Of a stretch of 64,000 bases of DNA, positions 28,009 through 33,463 are shown piece by piece. The stretch is from positions 3,432-67,431 of the forward strand of contig JBLHGU010000005.1 of assembly GCA_047615875.1 (NCBI GenBank), written 5' to 3'. The DNA is from Parasphingorhabdus sp. (GTDB lineage Bacteria > Pseudomonadota > Gammaproteobacteria > Arenicellales > CAJQKF01). Both the position numbers and the translations under genes were made by a program. Numbering within the stretch: the stretch's first letter is position 1; every line of letters starts with the position of its first letter. Below the pieces are notes generated by a model, which ran no database searches, was not told the origin of the DNA, and was given only the letters and a program-made list of their open reading frames with translations.

Positions 28009-28033
28009 ATAGGACGGGTGAAACCTACCATCT
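28009..28033. repeat. REP-like palindromic element, degenerate copy
   Basis: ataggacgggtgaaacctaccatc resembles the consensus gtaggatgggtgaaacccatcctac seen at 28141 (inverted) and 31157. Confidence 0.4.
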
Positions 28034-28140
28034 TGCATGAGTGTAGAAAGTAAAACTTTATTTTCCTCACACTAGTATCTGCGTAGTCCCTCTGCATATA
28101 GATTTCCCTGTAAATTATTATAGCCTGTTAAATTTCTTTT

Positions 28141-28161
28141 GATGGGTTTCACCCATCCTAC
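28141..28161. repeat. REP-like palindromic element (inverted orientation relative to 28009 and 31157)
   Basis: gatgggtttcacccatcctac has a 7-bp stem gatgggt/acccatc with a ttc loop. Its reverse complement matches the copy at 31157 at nearly every position. Confidence 0.55.
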
Positions 28162-28296: not shown

Positions 28297-29211
28297 CTAG
28301 ACTAGCGGAACCTCCCCCTTAACCTCCTCTTTTATCGAATGAAATTCAAGGTCACCGATCATCTTTTTCTCGGCAGCTTTCACGGGAGCCTTATGTGAAC
28401 TATTGTCTCCATGGACTGTATGGTAAACGGGTGTGCTTTCGTCACCATCGCCTGACACTGCCGTAATTGCATAGGTAAATTCTTCGCCTTTTACAACGCC
28501 CCGATCAAAGAATGAAAAAGTATCGCCACTCACCTCTGACAATAGGGTCAGCTGATCACCTTGCAATGAATATATTCGATAATTGGCGATCGTTCCACTT
28601 TCGTTCTTATCGTTTCTTTGCCAGTTAATCTGGATTATATGCTCGGCGTTTAAAAAGGCTTTGTTTGTATTTAGATTGGCGGACAGAATCAACGGTGGAG
28701 CCAGATTAAATAAAGATTTGATCGCACTAGATGTCTGTTCGCCATCTGTATTACTTGCCCCTAGAACAATTGCTAACCACCTTGGGTCACTGGGTAGGCC
28801 TGGTAGCAATGTTTCGTACTCGAGATCCAGAATATCTGTACCGTCACTATATTTCTCGGAAACAGTTGTCAGTAGATAATTGCCTTGCGCTGAATTAGGT
28901 GAAGTTGCAGGCGATTCTGACGGGACTGAAGCTGGAGGCGGAGCTGATACAGTCACGGGTTCAGGTGTTGCAACTGACGTAGTTACAGGCGTAGGTTTAG
29001 GAATTGGTTTCGGTGCTGGAGCCATACTCGGTGTCGATATACATTGCCCGCCACCCGCCGTGGAATTCACTGGATCGCATGAGGAACTATCGCAAAAGAC
29101 ATCACTACCACTGCTATCAAAACAAGCCCAGGCACTATTCGACGCGGACAAAACCAGTGCTACCGCACCAATGATTTGTTTTAATGTCAGATTGTTTAAA
29201 AAAATATTCAT
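28297..29211 (-). CDS. Exported (possibly lipidated) protein with a signal peptide, four-Cys module, Pro-rich linker and FN3-like C-terminal domain
   Basis: The signal peptide ends ...SASNSAWA|C. A CFDSSGSDVFCDSSSCDPVNSTAGGGQC module follows, then a PAPKPIPKPTPV...PPPASVP linker. The C-terminal IQINWQR...YRIYS...FTYAITAV pattern resembles fibronectin type III. It lies 10 nt downstream of the TPR/beta-barrel gene. Confidence 0.5.
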   Translation of the reverse strand: MNIFLNNLTLKQIIGAVALVLSASNSAWACFDSSGSDVFCDSSSCDPVNSTAGGGQCISTPSMAPAPKPIPKPTPVTTSVATPEPVTVSAPPPASVPSESPATSPNSAQGNYLLTTVSEKYSDGTDILDLEYETLLPGLPSDPRWLAIVLGASNTDGEQTSSAIKSLFNLAPPLILSANLNTNKAFLNAEHIIQINWQRNDKNESGTIANYRIYSLQGDQLTLLSEVSGDTFSFFDRGVVKGEEFTYAITAVSGDGDESTPVYHTVHGDNSSHKAPVKAAEKKMIGDLEFHSIKEEVKGEVPLV

Positions 29212-29221
29212 AGGTTCGGCC

Positions 29222-30781
29222 TCAGAATTCCGCTGTCAGGCTGACCGAAATTCTTGTCCGGTCGTAATCATAAAACGAAATATTGGATCCATTTTCGAGA
29301 CGATCCAATTGCAGGTTTAATTTCAACTTCTCATTTAATTTTGATTCAACTACTACTCCAAGCTGCATCATATCGTCACGTCTTTTACTACTGGAAAATG
29401 AATTAATATTGTCGTAATCCGTGTTCGATAGTCCCGTATAAGCTGACAACTCCAGCGGGAATCTGCGGGACTGCACCGTTAAACTTGGCAAGGCACGTCT
29501 ACCGTGTAACTGCAAACCAATAGCCTGGGATCCAAAATCATTGCCCGATGCATTGCTAGTACTAAATTGCATCCCCAGAAGGGTTTTCCAAACTGCAAAA
29601 TCCTGGCTTAATCCAATGCCAAAAATATGACCGTCCTCGTCCCTGTTTAGATCATCTACTAAGATCGGACGATCAAAGTCGGCATCCCGAAAAGTATAGA
29701 AGCCATTCAGTTCTCGGTCGTCGTCCAATTGTTTGTTAAGACCCAATGTCATGTAGTTGGTATCTAAAAAATTATCACCGTCTAGCTCACCCTTCGTTAA
29801 CCCTAACGTTGCACTTCCGACTATGGATTGATTGAGCCATTTTGAATACGTCCCATACACAGAATGTCGGGTTGTATCAAACTGATCCATTGAACTAAAG
29901 CGTTCGGAATCAAATTGATAGCCAAGCCGGACAAGCTGGCCACCCTGGTCGTAGGCGCGCCAGTTAATTCCGCCCCCTATTAGAATGGATTCATCCGATA
30001 CGCTGCCAATATCTGCTGGTTTCGCTACTCCATTTGCAAGACCGATAACATTGTCGTTATAACCAAAAGTAGCCTTTAGCCATCCACTGACCGGCTTGGT
30101 TGCGGGATTAGTGTGCTCCCTTGTTACGTTACTGGCATATTCAGATGGAAGGGAACGAATCACCCTTAGATCAAGATCTGATCGATTGTCGTTAGAAATC
30201 ATCTGGTCAAGATAACCAGCTGAATCCTCGTACTCGCCTTGTTGATTAGCCACCTGGGCTAGATAGAAAAATGCGAGATCGTTATCGGGGTCCTGAGCAA
30301 TGGCACCAAGAAGATATCTTTTAGCCTGTTCTGCATCATTAAGCTGCAAATAGGATTTTGCGAGGTATATATAGCCAGCAGATTGAGTCGGTTGATTTTG
30401 GTTATAGGTGGTAAATTTTTTGATCGCTTCGTCTACCTGGCCACTTTCAAGATGAGCACGACCCAGATTAAAACTGAGCAAATTACCCTTATAGCCTGCC
30501 GCCTCAGCGCGATTAAAGTACTCTAACGCATCTACAGGGGAAGCTAGCCCTAACTGCACGATGCCCTGAAAGTTCAGTATTATTGCCCTCGTACTATCCG
30601 CCAAACCAGTCTTGTCTATTGCCGAAAGCGCATCTTCTGCTTGCTGGTATTGGTTCGCCTCGAGAAAACCCAGTGCAGCGGAGAGACTCTCTAAATTATT
30701 TTCCTGAGCTCTGGCGAGTGACGGAGTCGAAAAACAAATAATGAATGCAAATGCTGAAATCCAGCGGAATTTAGTGTTCAT
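29222..30781 (-). CDS. TPR-repeat protein with a C-terminal outer-membrane beta-barrel (Slam/DUF560-like architecture; candidate type XI secretion component)
   Basis: Signal peptide (AFAFIICFSTPSLARA). About 200 aa of TPR-like helices follow (YQQAEDAL, GQVDEAIKKF, AEQAKRYL, GEYEDSAGYL). The next 300 aa or so alternate amphipathic beta strands with GYNDNV and SN..FYDYDR motifs and end in a terminal aromatic (LTAEF). Confidence 0.6.
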   Translation of the reverse strand: MNTKFRWISAFAFIICFSTPSLARAQENNLESLSAALGFLEANQYQQAEDALSAIDKTGLADSTRAIILNFQGIVQLGLASPVDALEYFNRAEAAGYKGNLLSFNLGRAHLESGQVDEAIKKFTTYNQNQPTQSAGYIYLAKSYLQLNDAEQAKRYLLGAIAQDPDNDLAFFYLAQVANQQGEYEDSAGYLDQMISNDNRSDLDLRVIRSLPSEYASNVTREHTNPATKPVSGWLKATFGYNDNVIGLANGVAKPADIGSVSDESILIGGGINWRAYDQGGQLVRLGYQFDSERFSSMDQFDTTRHSVYGTYSKWLNQSIVGSATLGLTKGELDGDNFLDTNYMTLGLNKQLDDDRELNGFYTFRDADFDRPILVDDLNRDEDGHIFGIGLSQDFAVWKTLLGMQFSTSNASGNDFGSQAIGLQLHGRRALPSLTVQSRRFPLELSAYTGLSNTDYDNINSFSSSKRRDDMMQLGVVVESKLNEKLKLNLQLDRLENGSNISFYDYDRTRISVSLTAEF

Positions 30782-31156
30782 ACTATTGGCTAAACTAGTA
30801 ATTATTTACAAAAAGGATTCCTTAATTGTCGCCGCAACTTATCAATATTGGGACTCAATGTAAGCTAAATACGTACAGTATCGAAGGAATACGATTACTT
30901 GTTAGTAGCATACTAAACACGGAGAATATTTGATACTACCAACGTACGCATGTCAAATTCGGGGAACGAATAACCACCTAGAGTGCTCTAGAAACAGCTC
31001 CGAAATTCAAAGTATTACTCATAACTGCGAATTATATATTTACTTTTGTGCTTAGTTTTTAGCTATAGGGCGGCGTATAGCCAACTAAACAGCTATTTTT
31101 TTGTGTATACAAAAAAAGAATTTTACTTTCAATTATCCCTCCATTGGCGATCTCTG

Positions 31157-31180
31157 TAGGATGGATGAAACCCATCCTAC
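31157..31180. repeat. REP-like palindromic element
   Basis: gtaggatggatgaaacccatcctac has 9-bp arms gtaggatgg/ccatcctac. It lies just downstream of the SnoaL-like gene and upstream of the TPR/beta-barrel cassette. Confidence 0.55.
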
Positions 31181-32229: not shown

Positions 32230-32877
32230 TCAAAGAATACCTTTTATAAAACTCTCACCAAAAATAATCAACAGAAGTGGAACCGGTGATACTGCTATTA
32301 CTATGGTAAGTAAAAACAATGGTACTGAAAAAAGCCGACTTATTCCTGCTATCAATGCAATACCTCCGCCACCACCGATTATTATATTGCCCGGTATATT
32401 TATCGAAAAGGCCAAAGCAATATATCGATGTTTTAGTAGCGTAGGGGTCAGTCTTTTGGGTGTACTAGATAGAATCAGATTTAGGCGCTGCTCTGAATCC
32501 AGATATCTTAACCTATCCAGAAATTGACTTGCCTTTTGCAACCGCAAGTCATGTAAAAACCGCACAAGCATTTGTTCTGGAATTATTCTTCCCAAAATAA
32601 AGCTTAGGCTAAGTGACGCTACTGTACACAGGTAAACAAGAGGTACGATCTTTGGTCCGAGAATGAGCATAACGGCTAATCCAATTTCCGCACCCGGTAC
32701 GAAGGGGATTGCCATGAGTATCAGGTAAGCAATCATTGAGATCATTATTATACGATGCACGGTAAATTCGTTTACCGGTGTAATATCGTAATCAAGCTCA
32801 CTCACAATCGATTGTGTGAGGAAATTACCTAGTGCAATAACACCGATCAGAAGAAGCAGTTTGAGTATTATATTCAA
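32230..32877 (-). CDS. Polytopic membrane protein of unknown function
   Basis: 215 aa with about five hydrophobic helices and a GGGGG turn. AT-rich codon usage. Confidence 0.5.
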   Translation of the reverse strand: MNIILKLLLLIGVIALGNFLTQSIVSELDYDITPVNEFTVHRIIMISMIAYLILMAIPFVPGAEIGLAVMLILGPKIVPLVYLCTVASLSLSFILGRIIPEQMLVRFLHDLRLQKASQFLDRLRYLDSEQRLNLILSSTPKRLTPTLLKHRYIALAFSINIPGNIIIGGGGGIALIAGISRLFSVPLFLLTIVIAVSPVPLLLIIFGESFIKGIL

Positions 32878-32926: not shown

Positions 32927-33463
32927 TTACTCTTGCTTTGTCGACTGTTTATCGGTCTGAACCAGGCTTCCCTTGAACCAGTATTTTGTTTCAAACGTCC
33001 AATACCATCGTCTGTTCGTCCAGGTAAAAACCCCCTCGATACTATCGCCATCAGTAACACCTTCCCACAAAATAGTCGCATCAGACTTAAGACAAGGTGT
33101 CACGGCTTTTACTTTGACTTGATTATCAATTTTCTGGAGCCAGTATTCTCCATCCGTATAGCCACATCTTCTTTCACACCCTTTTGAAACGAATTTTCCT
33201 CCATCGAATTTTATCAAATCCGTTGAAGTAGCTGGCTCGCCTACTGGGCCAAGTTCACCTGAGAAAGATTTACCTTCTAGGAATGAGATACTGGTAGAGT
33301 TTGATACTAGTTCCGGTTGTAAGTCCCCAGCCGACAGCAGAGAACTGGCACAACTAACCAGGAAAAAACAAAATTTAACAACGCTCCGAATAGCAGTATT
33401 CCACCATTGAAAGCAGTTGTTACTATTCAAATAAATATTTCGTCTTTTTATATATTCAAGCAT
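32927..33463 (-). CDS. Putative lipoprotein of unknown function (start uncertain)
   Basis: Lipobox-like FLVSC preceded by a short hydrophobic stretch, with a W/Y/K-rich beta-type mature region. The ATG at 33463 gives an unusually long n-region, and an internal TTG start is possible. Confidence 0.45.
   Translation of the reverse strand: MLEYIKRRNIYLNSNNCFQWWNTAIRSVVKFCFFLVSCASSLLSAGDLQPELVSNSTSISFLEGKSFSGELGPVGEPATSTDLIKFDGGKFVSKGCERRCGYTDGEYWLQKIDNQVKVKAVTPCLKSDATILWEGVTDGDSIEGVFTWTNRRWYWTFETKYWFKGSLVQTDKQSTKQE

What the first reader, a model, noticed from the sequence alone, without database searches (positions are those of the whole stretch)
28297..30781. Two-gene cassette with Slam / type XI secretion-like architecture: a TPR + beta-barrel outer-membrane protein followed by a Cys/Pro-rich FN3-like cargo candidate
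Seen in sequence:
- The 519-aa protein has a signal peptide and about 200 aa of TPR-like helices.
- It continues with a roughly 300-aa alternating-hydrophobic beta region containing GYNDNV and SNISFYDYDR motifs, and ends in a terminal Phe (LTAEF).
- Ten nucleotides downstream lies a 304-aa protein whose signal peptide ends AWA|C.
- That protein continues with four closely spaced Cys, a PAPKPIPKPTP...PPPASVP linker and an FN3-like domain.

Established knowledge:
- Slam (DUF560) proteins combine an N-terminal TPR domain with a 14-strand barrel.
- They are typically encoded next to the surface lipoprotein or soluble cargo they export (TbpB, fHbp, hemophilin, NilC). This class is now called type XI secretion.

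Inference: this is a Slam-like exporter with a novel, non-TbpB-like cargo. The cargo is unusual because known cargos carry a C-terminal 8-strand barrel rather than an FN3-like module, and its lipobox is non-canonical (A-W-A-C).
Basis: partly seen in the sequence, partly recalled or inferred. Interest (0 to 1): 0.62.

Follow-up and report, generated by a model that had tools for sequence, protein, structure and literature searches.

The report
Divergent Slam-like barrel with new partner
Two coupled genes encode a very divergent relative of the Slam (type 11 secretion) outer-membrane channel and a dedicated partner protein that lacks the hallmark domain of all known Slam cargo, so they may show another way this channel family handles proteins.

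Summary
A 519-aa signal-peptide + TPR + beta-barrel protein (29222-30781, minus strand) is followed after 10 nt by a 304-aa secreted protein (28297-29211).

The barrel protein gives no hit to Pfam DUF560/SlipAM. Other evidence still places it in the Slam superfamily:
- AlphaFold2 (pLDDT 90) predicts about six TPRs plus exactly 14 strands.
- Clade relatives pass the SlipAM cut-off.
- Barrel-only profile comparison to Pfam-positive DUF560 proteins gives 99.6% (E 1.7e-23), against 2.5% or less for reversed controls.

The clade is distinct and fully supported in the tree.

The gene pair recurs in 6 of 243 genomes of the order, always adjacent, with unrelated flanking genes.

The partner proteins share four features:
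- a signal peptide ending A|C
- an invariant 4-Cys module
- a Pro-rich linker
- a 17-residue C-terminal motif

Their middles differ: FN3-like here (sub-threshold), charged and probably helical elsewhere. None has the 8-strand barrel that defines T11SS cargo. The signal peptide fits signal peptidase I better than a lipobox.

In the wider family the downstream partner is a FecR-domain protein, and one of these carries a true TbpB-type barrel.

Verdict: a new variant of a known kind. Export was not tested.

The parts
29222..30781 (-). Gene for the 519-aa outer-membrane protein, a divergent member of the Slam/DUF560 (T11SS OMP) superfamily
   Evidence: ORF. AF2 model pLDDT 90.4. hhalign to DUF560 barrels. 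Orthologs at 36-42% identity.
30707..30781 (-). Signal peptide, residues 1 to about 25 (MNTKFRWISAFAFIICFSTPSLARA|Q)
   Evidence: Read from the sequence. pLDDT is below 50 for residues 1-20. No signal-peptide predictor was available.
30113..30703 (-). Periplasmic TPR domain, residues about 27-223 (13 helices, about 6 TPRs)
   Evidence: Pfam TPR_16 E 8.7e-16, TPR_19, TPR_2 and others. Helices H20-H223 in the AF2 model.
29225..30091 (-). 14-stranded beta-barrel, residues 231-519, with a conserved C-terminal N-x-SNI-x-FY-x-YD-R...F motif
   Evidence: DSSP on the AF2 model gives 14 strands between 231 and 518. The best barrel-only PDB matches are the 14-strand CymA and OmpG. hhalign to DUF560 barrels.
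29212..29224 (-). Stop codon of the barrel gene plus the 10-nt spacer. GAGG overlaps the stop about 8 nt before the partner's ATG, so translational coupling is likely.
   Evidence: Sequence read. The gap is 2-10 nt in four related loci, and in L075 the partner's listed ORF start (a TTG) overlaps the barrel gene's end.
28297..29211 (-). Gene for the 304-aa partner (putative cargo)
   Evidence: ORF. The only homologs are the partners in the five other loci.
29125..29211 (-). Partner signal peptide, residues 1-29, ending NSAWA|C
   Evidence: Sequence. A-x-A or V-x-A directly before an invariant Cys in all six partners.
29041..29124 (-). Conserved 4-Cys module, residues 30-57: C-x4-G-x4-C-x4-C-D-x5-A-x-G-x2-C
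   Evidence: Invariant columns. A profile of the module finds it in 6 of 243 genomes of the order at 53-77 bits.
28891..29040 (-). Pro-rich linker, residues 58-107 (30% Pro)
   Evidence: A comparable linker (18-24% Pro) follows the module in all six partners.
28423..28635 (-). FN3-like beta domain, residues about 193-263. This is the variable payload and is unique to this window's partner.
   Evidence: Pfam fn3 E 7.7e-4, 20.1 bits, below the cut-off of 25. Weak FN3 hits in PDB. Strands at 191-266 in a low-confidence model.
28300..28350 (-). Conserved C-terminal motif, residues 288-304: LEFHSIKEEVKGEVPLV
   Evidence: Aligned with LEVHSVRDEVKGPVNLD, LEVQSTKKEVSGSVLLN, IPHSVISETQGVIKLN and LSVRSVRKSAKGPMVLP from four other partners.
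28010..28161 (.). Two REP-like palindromes (28010-28030 and 28141-28161) downstream of the cassette. They are not specific to it.
   Evidence: 13 sites of GGATGGGTnnnACCCATCC (1 mismatch allowed) on at least 9 contigs of the genome.
31156..31176 (.). Third copy of the REP-like palindrome, upstream of the cassette

Best explanation
The two genes are a dedicated, probably translationally coupled pair.

The first gene encodes a highly divergent member of the Slam/DUF560 (type 11 secretion) outer-membrane protein superfamily. It has a periplasmic TPR domain and a 14-strand barrel.

The second gene encodes its Sec-exported partner. The partner is built as a disulfide-type 4-Cys module, a Pro-rich extended linker, a variable payload (FN3-like here) and a 17-residue C-terminal motif.

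Most likely mechanism, by analogy and therefore inferred:
1. The unfolded partner is engaged through its conserved C-terminal motif by the TPR-barrel protein.
2. It is passed across the outer membrane.
3. The FN3-like payload ends up exposed on the cell surface or released, where it could act as an adhesin.

The partner lacks the 8-strand barrel that defines all known T11SS cargo, so recognition must work differently.

Shown: architecture, homology, conserved linkage and the partner's modular conservation.
Inferred: export, topology and the roles of the two conserved termini.
For: Barrel architecture:
- AF2 model with pLDDT 90.4 shows TPR helices from 20 to 223 and then exactly 14 strands.

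Homology to DUF560/Slam:
- The barrel half defines a family of 119 representatives at 50% identity, mostly 500-525 aa.
- 27 of 60 members match PF04575 SlipAM at E<=0.01.
- Several exceed the 22-bit cut-off: the clade member P0007 scores 26.3, and family members P0011, P0013 and P0015 score 28.5, 25.9 and 25.0.
- Barrel-only hhalign: window clade vs Pfam-positive DUF560 99.6%, E 1.7e-23, 274 columns. Window clade vs canonical Slams 89.2%, E 2e-6. Wider family vs canonical Slams 98.3%, E 2e-14. Reversed control 2.5% or less.

Linkage:
- The partner's Cys module occurs in 6 of 243 genomes of the order, once per genome.
- The barrel gene is directly upstream in all six.
- Flanking genes are unrelated in the four loci scanned.

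Partner:
- Invariant Cys spacing, a Pro-rich linker, variable middles, and a shared C-terminal motif in 5 of 6.

Secretion-type function in the wider family:
- Relatives and Pfam-positive DUF560 genes are followed by secreted FecR-domain proteins.
- One of these carries a C-terminal TbpB_B_D cargo barrel at 26.9 bits on the full protein and 32.3 bits on the fragment, above the cut-off of 26.

Literature:
- Slams are defined as a TPR domain plus a 14-strand DUF560 barrel, often adjacent to cargo (PMC5449769).
- Slam1 is an autonomous translocon for unfolded substrate, recognised through a C-terminal specificity motif in the proposed model (PMC9090332).
Against: - The window's protein gives no PF04575 hit even at E<=1, and a six-frame search of its genome with the model finds none.
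- Its only Pfam barrel hits are sub-threshold: DUF2860 at 19.1 bits and BBP2_2 at 17.8 bits.
- No partner shows a TbpBBD/lipoprotein-C-type barrel: four full-length partners scanned at E<=10, the window's last 170 residues at E<=1, and hhalign against a real one gives 0.6%.
- In this window only about 36 residues follow the FN3-like region.
- A disulfide-bonded N-terminal module would be hard to pass through a 14-strand barrel.
- The partner structure could not be predicted (pLDDT 37).
- No expression data exist; the DNA is found only in ice-metagenome runs.
- Canonical Slams in my sample have their cargo gene upstream, not downstream.
- Nothing here tests export.
Confidence: 0.55

Rival explanations
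1. Threaded surface display with a periplasmic stopper. This is a more specific form of the best explanation.

Export starts from the C-terminal motif. The disulfide-locked 4-Cys module cannot pass the pore and stays in the periplasm or on the TPR domain. The Pro-rich linker spans the barrel, so the payload is held on the surface without a lipid anchor.
For: - The conserved order is compact N-terminal module, then Pro-rich linker, then variable payload, in all six partners.
- The mature protein has four Cys, an even number, in four of the six partners. The exceptions are G450, with three further Cys in its payload, and G494, where the gene is split.
- All six signal peptides fit the A-x-A/V-x-A rule for signal peptidase I with a polar c-region. 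By my reading only one of six (G450) fits the PROSITE lipobox pattern (sequences).
- The wider family has a parallel build with a conserved FecR head at the N-terminus.
- Earlier unverified notes of this scan proposed the same idea for FecR-headed cargo.
Against: - This is inference from architecture only.
- There is no structure of the module, no co-fold and no topology data.
- The module is small (28 residues) and might pass or be reduced.
- Disulfide formation is assumed.
Confidence: 0.25
2. Classical surface lipoprotein route. Cys30 is acylated (signal peptidase II), the partner travels by Lol, and the Slam-like barrel flips it to the surface as for TbpB/fHbp. It simply has a different recognition element.
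For: - Cys directly follows the signal peptide in all six partners, with Ala at -1.
- One partner (G450, T-V-S-A-C) fits a canonical lipobox.
- About half of Slam homologues sit next to lipobox proteins (PMC5449769).
Against: - Four of six have Trp at -2, and one has Glu in the h-region end.
- There is a polar c-region (N-S, E-S, P-D), which is typical of SPase I substrates.
- Lipidation would leave three Cys, an odd number.
- SignalP and LipoP could not be run.
Confidence: 0.2
3. The partner is not cargo. It is a periplasmic accessory, plug or regulator that binds the TPR domain or barrel, and the barrel moves something else or serves as an anchor.
For: - The defining cargo barrel is absent.
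- The T11SS literature itself raises the possibility that some marine T11SS OMPs have diverged in function or cargo (PMC12282271).
- In some relatives the FecR partner sits beside a CHASE2-domain gene, judged from the sequence motif, which hints at signalling roles.
Against: - The variable middle, with an FN3-like or charged payload behind a long Pro-rich linker, looks like a displayed effector and not a fixed accessory subunit.
- No other candidate substrate genes travel with the pair.
Confidence: 0.15
4. The TPR-barrel protein is a synthase-dependent exopolysaccharide porin (BcsC/PgaA/PelB type), and the neighbouring gene is unrelated.
For: BcsC is the top Foldseek hit by E-value, on overall TPR + barrel architecture.
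Against: - TM-score to BcsC is only 0.32.
- The model has 14 strands, not 16.
- No synthase or glycosyltransferase genes are nearby.
- The NCBIfam BcsC hit covers only the TPR part, at E 0.015.
- The partner gene is strictly linked in six genomes.
Confidence: 0.03

Closest known systems
Slam1/Slam2 (Neisseria), NilB, HrpB, TepS: type 11 secretion outer-membrane proteins (DUF560 / Pfam PF04575 SlipAM)
   Same: - Signal peptide, periplasmic TPR domain and a predicted 14-strand C-terminal barrel.
- A C-terminal N-x-SN-I/V...Y/F...F motif.
- Full-length barrel homology at profile level.
- Encoded next to a Sec-exported partner.
   Different: - The window's protein does not reach the Pfam model at all.
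- It forms its own fully supported clade with a long stem.
- The partner gene is downstream rather than upstream.
- The partner lacks the 8-strand TbpBBD/lipoprotein-C barrel common to all known and predicted cargo (PMC5449769, PMC12282271).
Low-scoring 'environmental' DUF560 proteins paired with secreted FecR-domain proteins. These are undescribed in the T11SS papers read, though earlier notes of this scan report them repeatedly.
   Same: - Same gene order: barrel gene, then the partner a few nt downstream.
- Same partner logic: a conserved N-terminal module with a variable remainder.
- Closest in profile terms: 99.6% by hhalign.
   Different: - The partner's N-terminal module is a 28-residue 4-Cys unit, not a FecR domain of about 100 residues.
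- One FecR partner (L026) keeps a TbpB_B_D barrel. The window-clade partners have a 17-residue C-terminal motif instead.
Marine cluster 3 T11SS OMPs (Rhodobacteraceae/Roseobacteraceae) co-occurring with DUF1194 (PMC12282271)
   Same: Marine T11SS-family OMPs whose neighbourhoods mostly lack the canonical cargo barrel. This raises the same question of alternative cargo.
   Different: - Different lineage: Alphaproteobacteria, and Pfam-positive DUF560.
- Different neighbours: DUF1194/vWA, thymidylate synthase and glyoxalase.
- No Cys-module partner is described there.
DUF2860 (PF11059) barrel-only outer-membrane proteins
   Same: A shared C-terminal NxSNIxFY motif, and a sub-threshold Pfam hit of 19.1 bits.
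   Different: - They have no TPR domain and are about 330 aa.
- hhalign with the window clade covers only the last 76 columns.
- They form a separate clade in the tree.

Membership tests
Slam / T11SS outer-membrane protein (DUF560, PF04575 SlipAM) | N-terminal periplasmic TPR domain | tested here: met
   Pfam TPR_16 E 8.7e-16 and other TPR models over residues 39-213. 13 helices from 20 to 223 in the AF2 model.
Slam / T11SS outer-membrane protein (DUF560, PF04575 SlipAM) | C-terminal 14-stranded beta-barrel | tested here: met
   AF2 with a 60-sequence MSA, pLDDT 90.4. DSSP gives 14 strands between residues 231 and 518. This is a prediction, not a solved structure, and no Slam structure is in the PDB copy.
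Slam / T11SS outer-membrane protein (DUF560, PF04575 SlipAM) | Match to the Pfam SlipAM model at or above the gathering score (22 bits) | tested here: not met
   No hit at E<=1 for the window's protein. No hit in a six-frame search of its genome. The clade member P0007 (33% identical over the barrel half) scores 26.3 bits, and family members P0011, P0013 and P0015 score 25-28.5 bits.
Slam / T11SS outer-membrane protein (DUF560, PF04575 SlipAM) | Homology to bona fide DUF560 barrels over the whole barrel (profile level) | tested here: met
   hhalign, barrel only. 99.6% and E 1.7e-23 over 274 columns against Pfam-positive DUF560. 89.2% and E 2e-6 over 212 columns against seven canonical Slams (93-220 bits). 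98.3% with the wider family profile. Reversed control 2.5% or less.
Slam / T11SS outer-membrane protein (DUF560, PF04575 SlipAM) | Encoded next to a Sec-exported cargo gene | tested here: met
   A partner with a signal peptide lies 10 nt downstream. The same arrangement is found in six genomes.
T11SS cargo | C-terminal 8-stranded beta-barrel (TbpBBD / lipoprotein C / PagP-like) | tested here: not met
   No such Pfam hit: at E<=10 for residues 101-304 of the window's partner and three other full-length partners, and at E<=1 for the window's last 170 residues. hhalign against a genuine TbpB_B_D C-terminus gives 0.6%. Only about 36 residues follow the FN3-like region.
T11SS (system) | Surface exposure or secretion of the cargo depends on the OMP | not testable with these tools
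   Needs co-expression and protease shaving, flow cytometry or supernatant assays.
Synthase-dependent EPS porins (BcsC, PgaA, PelB) | 16-strand (or larger) barrel and linkage to a polysaccharide synthase operon | tested here: not met
   14 strands. TM-score 0.32 to BcsC. The neighbours are SnoaL-like and sulfotransferase genes.
DUF2860 (PF11059) | Pfam match above 22.9 bits and a barrel-only architecture | tested here: not met
   19.1 bits. A TPR domain is present. hhalign overlap is limited to 76 C-terminal columns.
Fibronectin type III domain (PF00041), partner residues about 193-263 | Pfam match above 25 bits, or an FN3 fold | tested here: inconclusive
   20.1 bits, E 7.7e-4, on the fragment. 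PDB FN3 hits at E 0.28-0.67. The AF2 model has pLDDT 37 and shows only strands at 191-266.
Bacterial lipoprotein (signal peptidase II substrate) | Lipobox [LVI][ASTVI][GAS]-C at the end of the h-region | tested here: inconclusive
   Cys +1 and Ala -1 are invariant in six partners, but position -2 is Trp in four and a polar c-region precedes it. All six fit the SPase I A-x-A/V-x-A rule. No SignalP or LipoP was available.

The most novel reading that the evidence does not exclude
This may be a lipid-free way of holding proteins on the Gram-negative surface.

1. A Slam-superfamily barrel exports its partner C-terminus first, guided by a 17-residue C-terminal motif instead of an 8-strand barrel.
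2. A disulfide-locked 28-residue N-terminal module acts as a periplasmic stopper.
3. A Pro-rich linker stays threaded through the pore.
4. Interchangeable payloads (FN3-like, or charged and probably helical) are then displayed outside the cell.
Probability: 0.2. Interest if true: 0.8.

Novelty: new variant of a known kind. Interest (0 to 1): 0.55.

Why it matters
Only cluster 1 of the ten T11SS clusters has been studied experimentally. All accepted cargo is recognised through a C-terminal 8-strand barrel, and the field's own survey asks what marine T11SS proteins without such cargo do (PMC12282271).

This clade lies beyond the reach of the Pfam model, so family censuses miss it. It is nevertheless tightly coupled to a partner with two short, sharply conserved elements, the 4-Cys module and the C-terminal motif.

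If the barrel exports this partner, the recognition signal would be reduced to about 17 residues that can be mutated. The system would then be a small two-gene model for studying how Slam-type channels select and release or retain substrates, and possibly a compact display scaffold.

If it does not export the partner, that shows the Slam fold has been put to another use.

The practical stakes are modest. The clade is rare (6 of 243 genomes in the order) and known only from uncultured marine, ice and sponge-associated bacteria.

Tried and rejected
- Word-indexed homologue searches with the full proteins returned only the proteins themselves plus one TPR protein, because TPR words swamped the candidate list. 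The exhaustive search with the barrel half solved this.
- The metagenome scan with the clade profile found only three distant loci at 24-25% identity, with other downstream secreted proteins.
- The PDB sequence-profile search returned only TPR proteins.
- Foldseek against the PDB cannot test Slam membership because no Slam structure is present. It gave 14-strand CymA and OmpG as the best barrel-only matches, and BcsC on overall architecture at TM 0.32.
- The AF2 model of the partner failed (pLDDT 37, 5-sequence MSA), so I ran no fold search on it.
- I looked for a hidden TbpB-type barrel in the window's partner and in other long FecR partners. Pfam was negative except for L026, phmmer with the L026 C-terminus found no significant match in any other partner, and hhalign at this depth gave 0.2-0.6%. 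By eye some C-termini (L017, L018, L048) resemble TbpBBD ends, but I make no claim on that.
- The BcsC/PgaA/PelB reading is rejected on strand number, TM-score and gene context.
- DUF2860 and BBP2_2 are rejected as the family, because the overlap is C-terminal only and the clades are separate.
- The palindromes bracketing the cassette are not cassette ends. They are a dispersed REP-like element.
- No RNA runs hold the locus.
- The promoter and terminator scans were below the shuffled expectation and uninformative.
Full report
**Observation**

The 519-aa protein (29222-30781, minus strand) has these features:
- a signal-peptide-like N-terminus;
- strong TPR matches over residues 39-213 (TPR_16 E 8.7e-16);
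- the motifs GYNDNV and SNISFYDYDR;
- a C-terminal ...LTAEF.

Ten nucleotides later, with a GAGG overlapping the stop codon, starts a 304-aa protein (28297-29211). Its signal peptide ends NSAWA|C. It has Cys at 30, 40, 45 and 57, and a linker with 30% Pro.

The FN3-like call is weakly supported:
- Pfam fn3 reaches E 7.7e-4 and 20.1 bits (cut-off 25) only when residues 101-304 are scanned alone.
- PDB phmmer gives Robo1 and neogenin FN3 domains at E 0.28-0.67.

**What the barrel protein is**

Direct family assignment fails. PF04575 (SlipAM = DUF560) is absent even at E<=1. The only barrel hits are sub-threshold: DUF2860 at 19.1 bits, BBP2_2 at 17.8 bits, and the EpsL C-terminus. A six-frame search of the whole genome with PF04575 also finds nothing.

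An exhaustive HMMER search with the barrel half alone (residues 216-519) found 119 representatives at 50% identity. Nearly all are 500-525 aa with the match at the C-terminus.

Of 60 aligned members:
- 27 hit SlipAM at E<=0.01, 22 hit DUF2860 and 16 hit BBP2_2.
- P0007, which belongs to the window's clade (33% identical over the barrel half), scores 26.3 bits on SlipAM. Family members P0011, P0013 and P0015 score 28.5, 25.9 and 25.0, against a cut-off of 22.

AlphaFold2 on that alignment gave a confident model (mean pLDDT 90.4). It has 13 helices between residues 20 and 223 and exactly 14 strands between 231 and 518.

The PDB copy holds no Slam. The best barrel-only structural matches are the 14-strand CymA and OmpG. 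BcsC matches only on overall architecture, at TM 0.32.

To test the Slam relationship directly, I collected bona fide DUF560 proteins by searching 300 genomes of the class with the Pfam model. That gave seven strong Slams (93-220 bits) and eleven low-scoring but above-cut-off proteins.

hhalign results on the barrel region only:

| Query | Target | Probability | E-value | Columns |
|---|---|---|---|---|
| Window clade | Low-scoring DUF560 | 99.6% | 1.7e-23 | 274 |
| Strong Slams | Low-scoring DUF560 | 99.5% | 1.7e-22 | 282 |
| Window clade | Strong Slams | 89.2% | 2e-6 | 212 |
| Wider family | Strong Slams | 98.3% | 2e-14 | 276 |
| Window clade / wider family | Reversed strong Slams (control) | 0.5% / 2.5% | 0.13 / 0.018 | 30 / 103 |
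| Window clade | DUF2860 | 91.2% | 9.9e-7 | 76 (C-terminal only) |
| Strong Slams | DUF2860 | 9.5% | 0.0034 | 104 |

A maximum-likelihood tree of 85 barrels shows:
- the window clade as one fully supported lineage (100/100, stem length 0.91) inside the large TPR-barrel family;
- canonical Slams nested among the Pfam-positive low-scoring DUF560 proteins;
- DUF2860 as a separate group.

The conclusion is that this is a remote member of the Slam/DUF560 superfamily with the defining architecture, lying below the detection limit of the curated model.

**The pair is the unit**

An ortholog at 42% identity in another family of the same order is followed after 10 nt by a protein that shares only the N-terminus with the window's partner. 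More loci came from a GTDB-genome scan and a contig look-up.

A 39-residue profile of the N-terminal module was then searched over 243 genomes of the order. It scores 53-77 bits in six genomes, once per genome, spread over four families. The barrel gene is directly upstream in all six.

Flanking genes are unrelated in the four loci I scanned:

| Locus | Flanking genes |
|---|---|
| Window | SnoaL-like and sulfotransferase |
| L010 | M35 peptidase and DUF2238 |
| L002 | DUF255 |
| L042 | DUF7933 |

The patchy distribution and the slightly AT-rich surroundings (GC 0.41-0.44 against 0.47-0.50) fit gain and loss of the pair as a unit.

The palindromes that bracket the cassette are a dispersed REP-like element, with 13 sites in the genome.

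**The partner**

The six partners share four features:
1. A signal peptide ending A-x-A or V-x-A directly before an invariant Cys.
2. The module C-x4-G-x4-C-x4-C-D-x5-A-x-G-x2-C with invariant spacing.
3. A Pro-rich stretch, 18-30% Pro over the next 50 residues.
4. In five of six, a C-terminal motif: LEFHSIKEEVKGEVPLV, LEVHSVRDEVKGPVNLD, LEVQSTKKEVSGSVLLN, IPHSVISETQGVIKLN or LSVRSVRKSAKGPMVLP.

Between these ends the proteins are unrelated:
- The window's partner is FN3-like.
- Three others have highly charged middles (41-45% K/E/R/D/Q), probably helical.
- One has a Cys-containing globular region.

None has a TbpBBD or lipoprotein-C type domain: the four full-length partners I scanned are negative at E<=10, the window's last 170 residues are negative at E<=1, and hhalign against a genuine example gives 0.6%.

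The AF2 model of the partner is unusable (pLDDT 37).

Signal type is a reasoned judgement here, not a test. The evidence points to signal peptidase I:
- Trp at position -2 in four of six partners.
- A polar c-region before the cleavage site.
- An even number of Cys in the mature protein in four of the six partners.
- By my reading only one of six fits the PROSITE lipobox pattern, while all six fit the SPase I -3/-1 rule.

**The wider family**

Distant family members and the low-scoring Pfam-positive DUF560 genes are typically followed by a secreted FecR-domain protein. FecR (PF04773) scores 33-96 bits in eight of nine partners tested.

One of these partners (L026, 892 aa) also carries a C-terminal TbpB_B_D domain above the cut-off: 26.9 bits on the full protein and 32.3 bits on the fragment, against a cut-off of 26. 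This ties that wing of the family to canonical T11SS cargo.

The T11SS papers I read do not mention FecR. Earlier notes of this scan do, for more than 100 genomes. Those notes are leads only, though they agree.

In my sample of canonical Slams the cargo-like gene is upstream instead.

**Mechanism**

Shown:
- a Slam-type architecture and homology;
- strict linkage to a Sec-exported partner;
- conservation concentrated at the partner's two ends.

Inferred:
- By analogy with Slam1, an autonomous translocon for unfolded substrate recognised through a C-terminal specificity motif in the proposed model (PMC9090332), the barrel most likely exports the partner.
- The short C-terminal motif would replace the 8-strand barrel as the recognition element.
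- The FN3-like payload would end up outside the cell.

The order of 4-Cys module, Pro-rich linker and payload suggests a more specific possibility: the disulfide-locked module stays in the periplasm as a stopper while the linker spans the pore.

Rivals are classical lipoprotein display, a non-cargo accessory role, and an EPS porin. The EPS porin is disfavoured.

**Comparison and novelty**

The pair works like, and is distantly related to, T11SS. It meets the architectural criteria of the family and the profile-level homology criterion. It fails the curated HMM criterion, and the partner fails the cargo criterion.

I file it as a new variant of a known kind. It is a rare clade (6 of 243 genomes of the order) seen only in ice, marine and sponge-associated MAGs, with an undescribed partner class.

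Every functional statement needs the co-expression assay described under next steps.

Noticed in passing
L026:4023-6701 (Desulfurivibrio MAG); also L014, L015, L020, L023, L048, L056, L059: In the wider TPR-barrel/DUF560 family the gene directly downstream encodes a secreted FecR-domain protein (PF04773, 33-96 bits). The L026 partner combines an N-terminal FecR domain with a C-terminal TbpB_B_D cargo barrel above the Pfam cut-off. The T11SS papers I read do not mention FecR.
   Followed up: partly
L004/L015 (Arenicellales MAG), locus L015:4578-7840: A distant barrel relative is followed by a 365-aa FecR-domain protein with about 30 tandem PPPPA repeats. Two ORFs follow it: the first has an N-terminus that looks like a CHASE2 sensor domain (judged by eye), and a 506-aa ORF comes next.
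   Followed up: no
L076 (G494:C2, about 732 kb): The partner gene is split over two reading frames. A 90-aa ORF holds the signal peptide, Cys module and linker. An overlapping 300-aa ORF ends in the conserved C-terminal motif. This could be a frameshift, a sequencing error or a pseudogene.
   Followed up: no
L011/L072 (G450) and L076 (G494): The barrel ORFs in these two genomes are only 296-325 aa and lack most of the TPR domain. In L011 tblastn similarity continues upstream of the ORF start, to query residue 160. The TPR part may be frameshifted or lost.
   Followed up: no
window 28010-28030, 28141-28161, 31156-31176: A REP-like palindrome (GGATGGGTnnnACCCATCC) brackets the cassette. It occurs at 13 sites on at least 9 contigs of the genome, so it is a dispersed element and not the ends of the cassette.
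   Followed up: yes
window 32230-32877 (-) and 32927-33463 (-): Two orphan ORFs, a 215-aa multi-pass membrane protein and a 178-aa protein, have no Pfam match at E<=0.001. They lie in the same slightly AT-rich stretch (GC 0.41-0.44).
   Followed up: no
window 28297-30781: Near-identical DNA is found only in public runs labelled 'ice metagenome' (three runs with 76-100% of sampled words). No RNA runs hold it.
   Followed up: partly
L012:4379-5416 (Methylococcaceae MAG): The partner of a barrel relative at 25% identity looks like an intermediate form. It has signal peptide ...LTLA|CYGSSC, a poly-Ser linker, a long K/E-rich region and a C-terminal ...SVIQTKDGGIVIIPNFKPEF. It has only two Cys.
   Followed up: no
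L010:2692-3852: In the Ca. Poriferihabitaceae locus an M35 aspzincin (Lys-specific metalloendopeptidase) gene lies directly upstream of the barrel gene on the same strand. This is not seen in the other loci.
   Followed up: no
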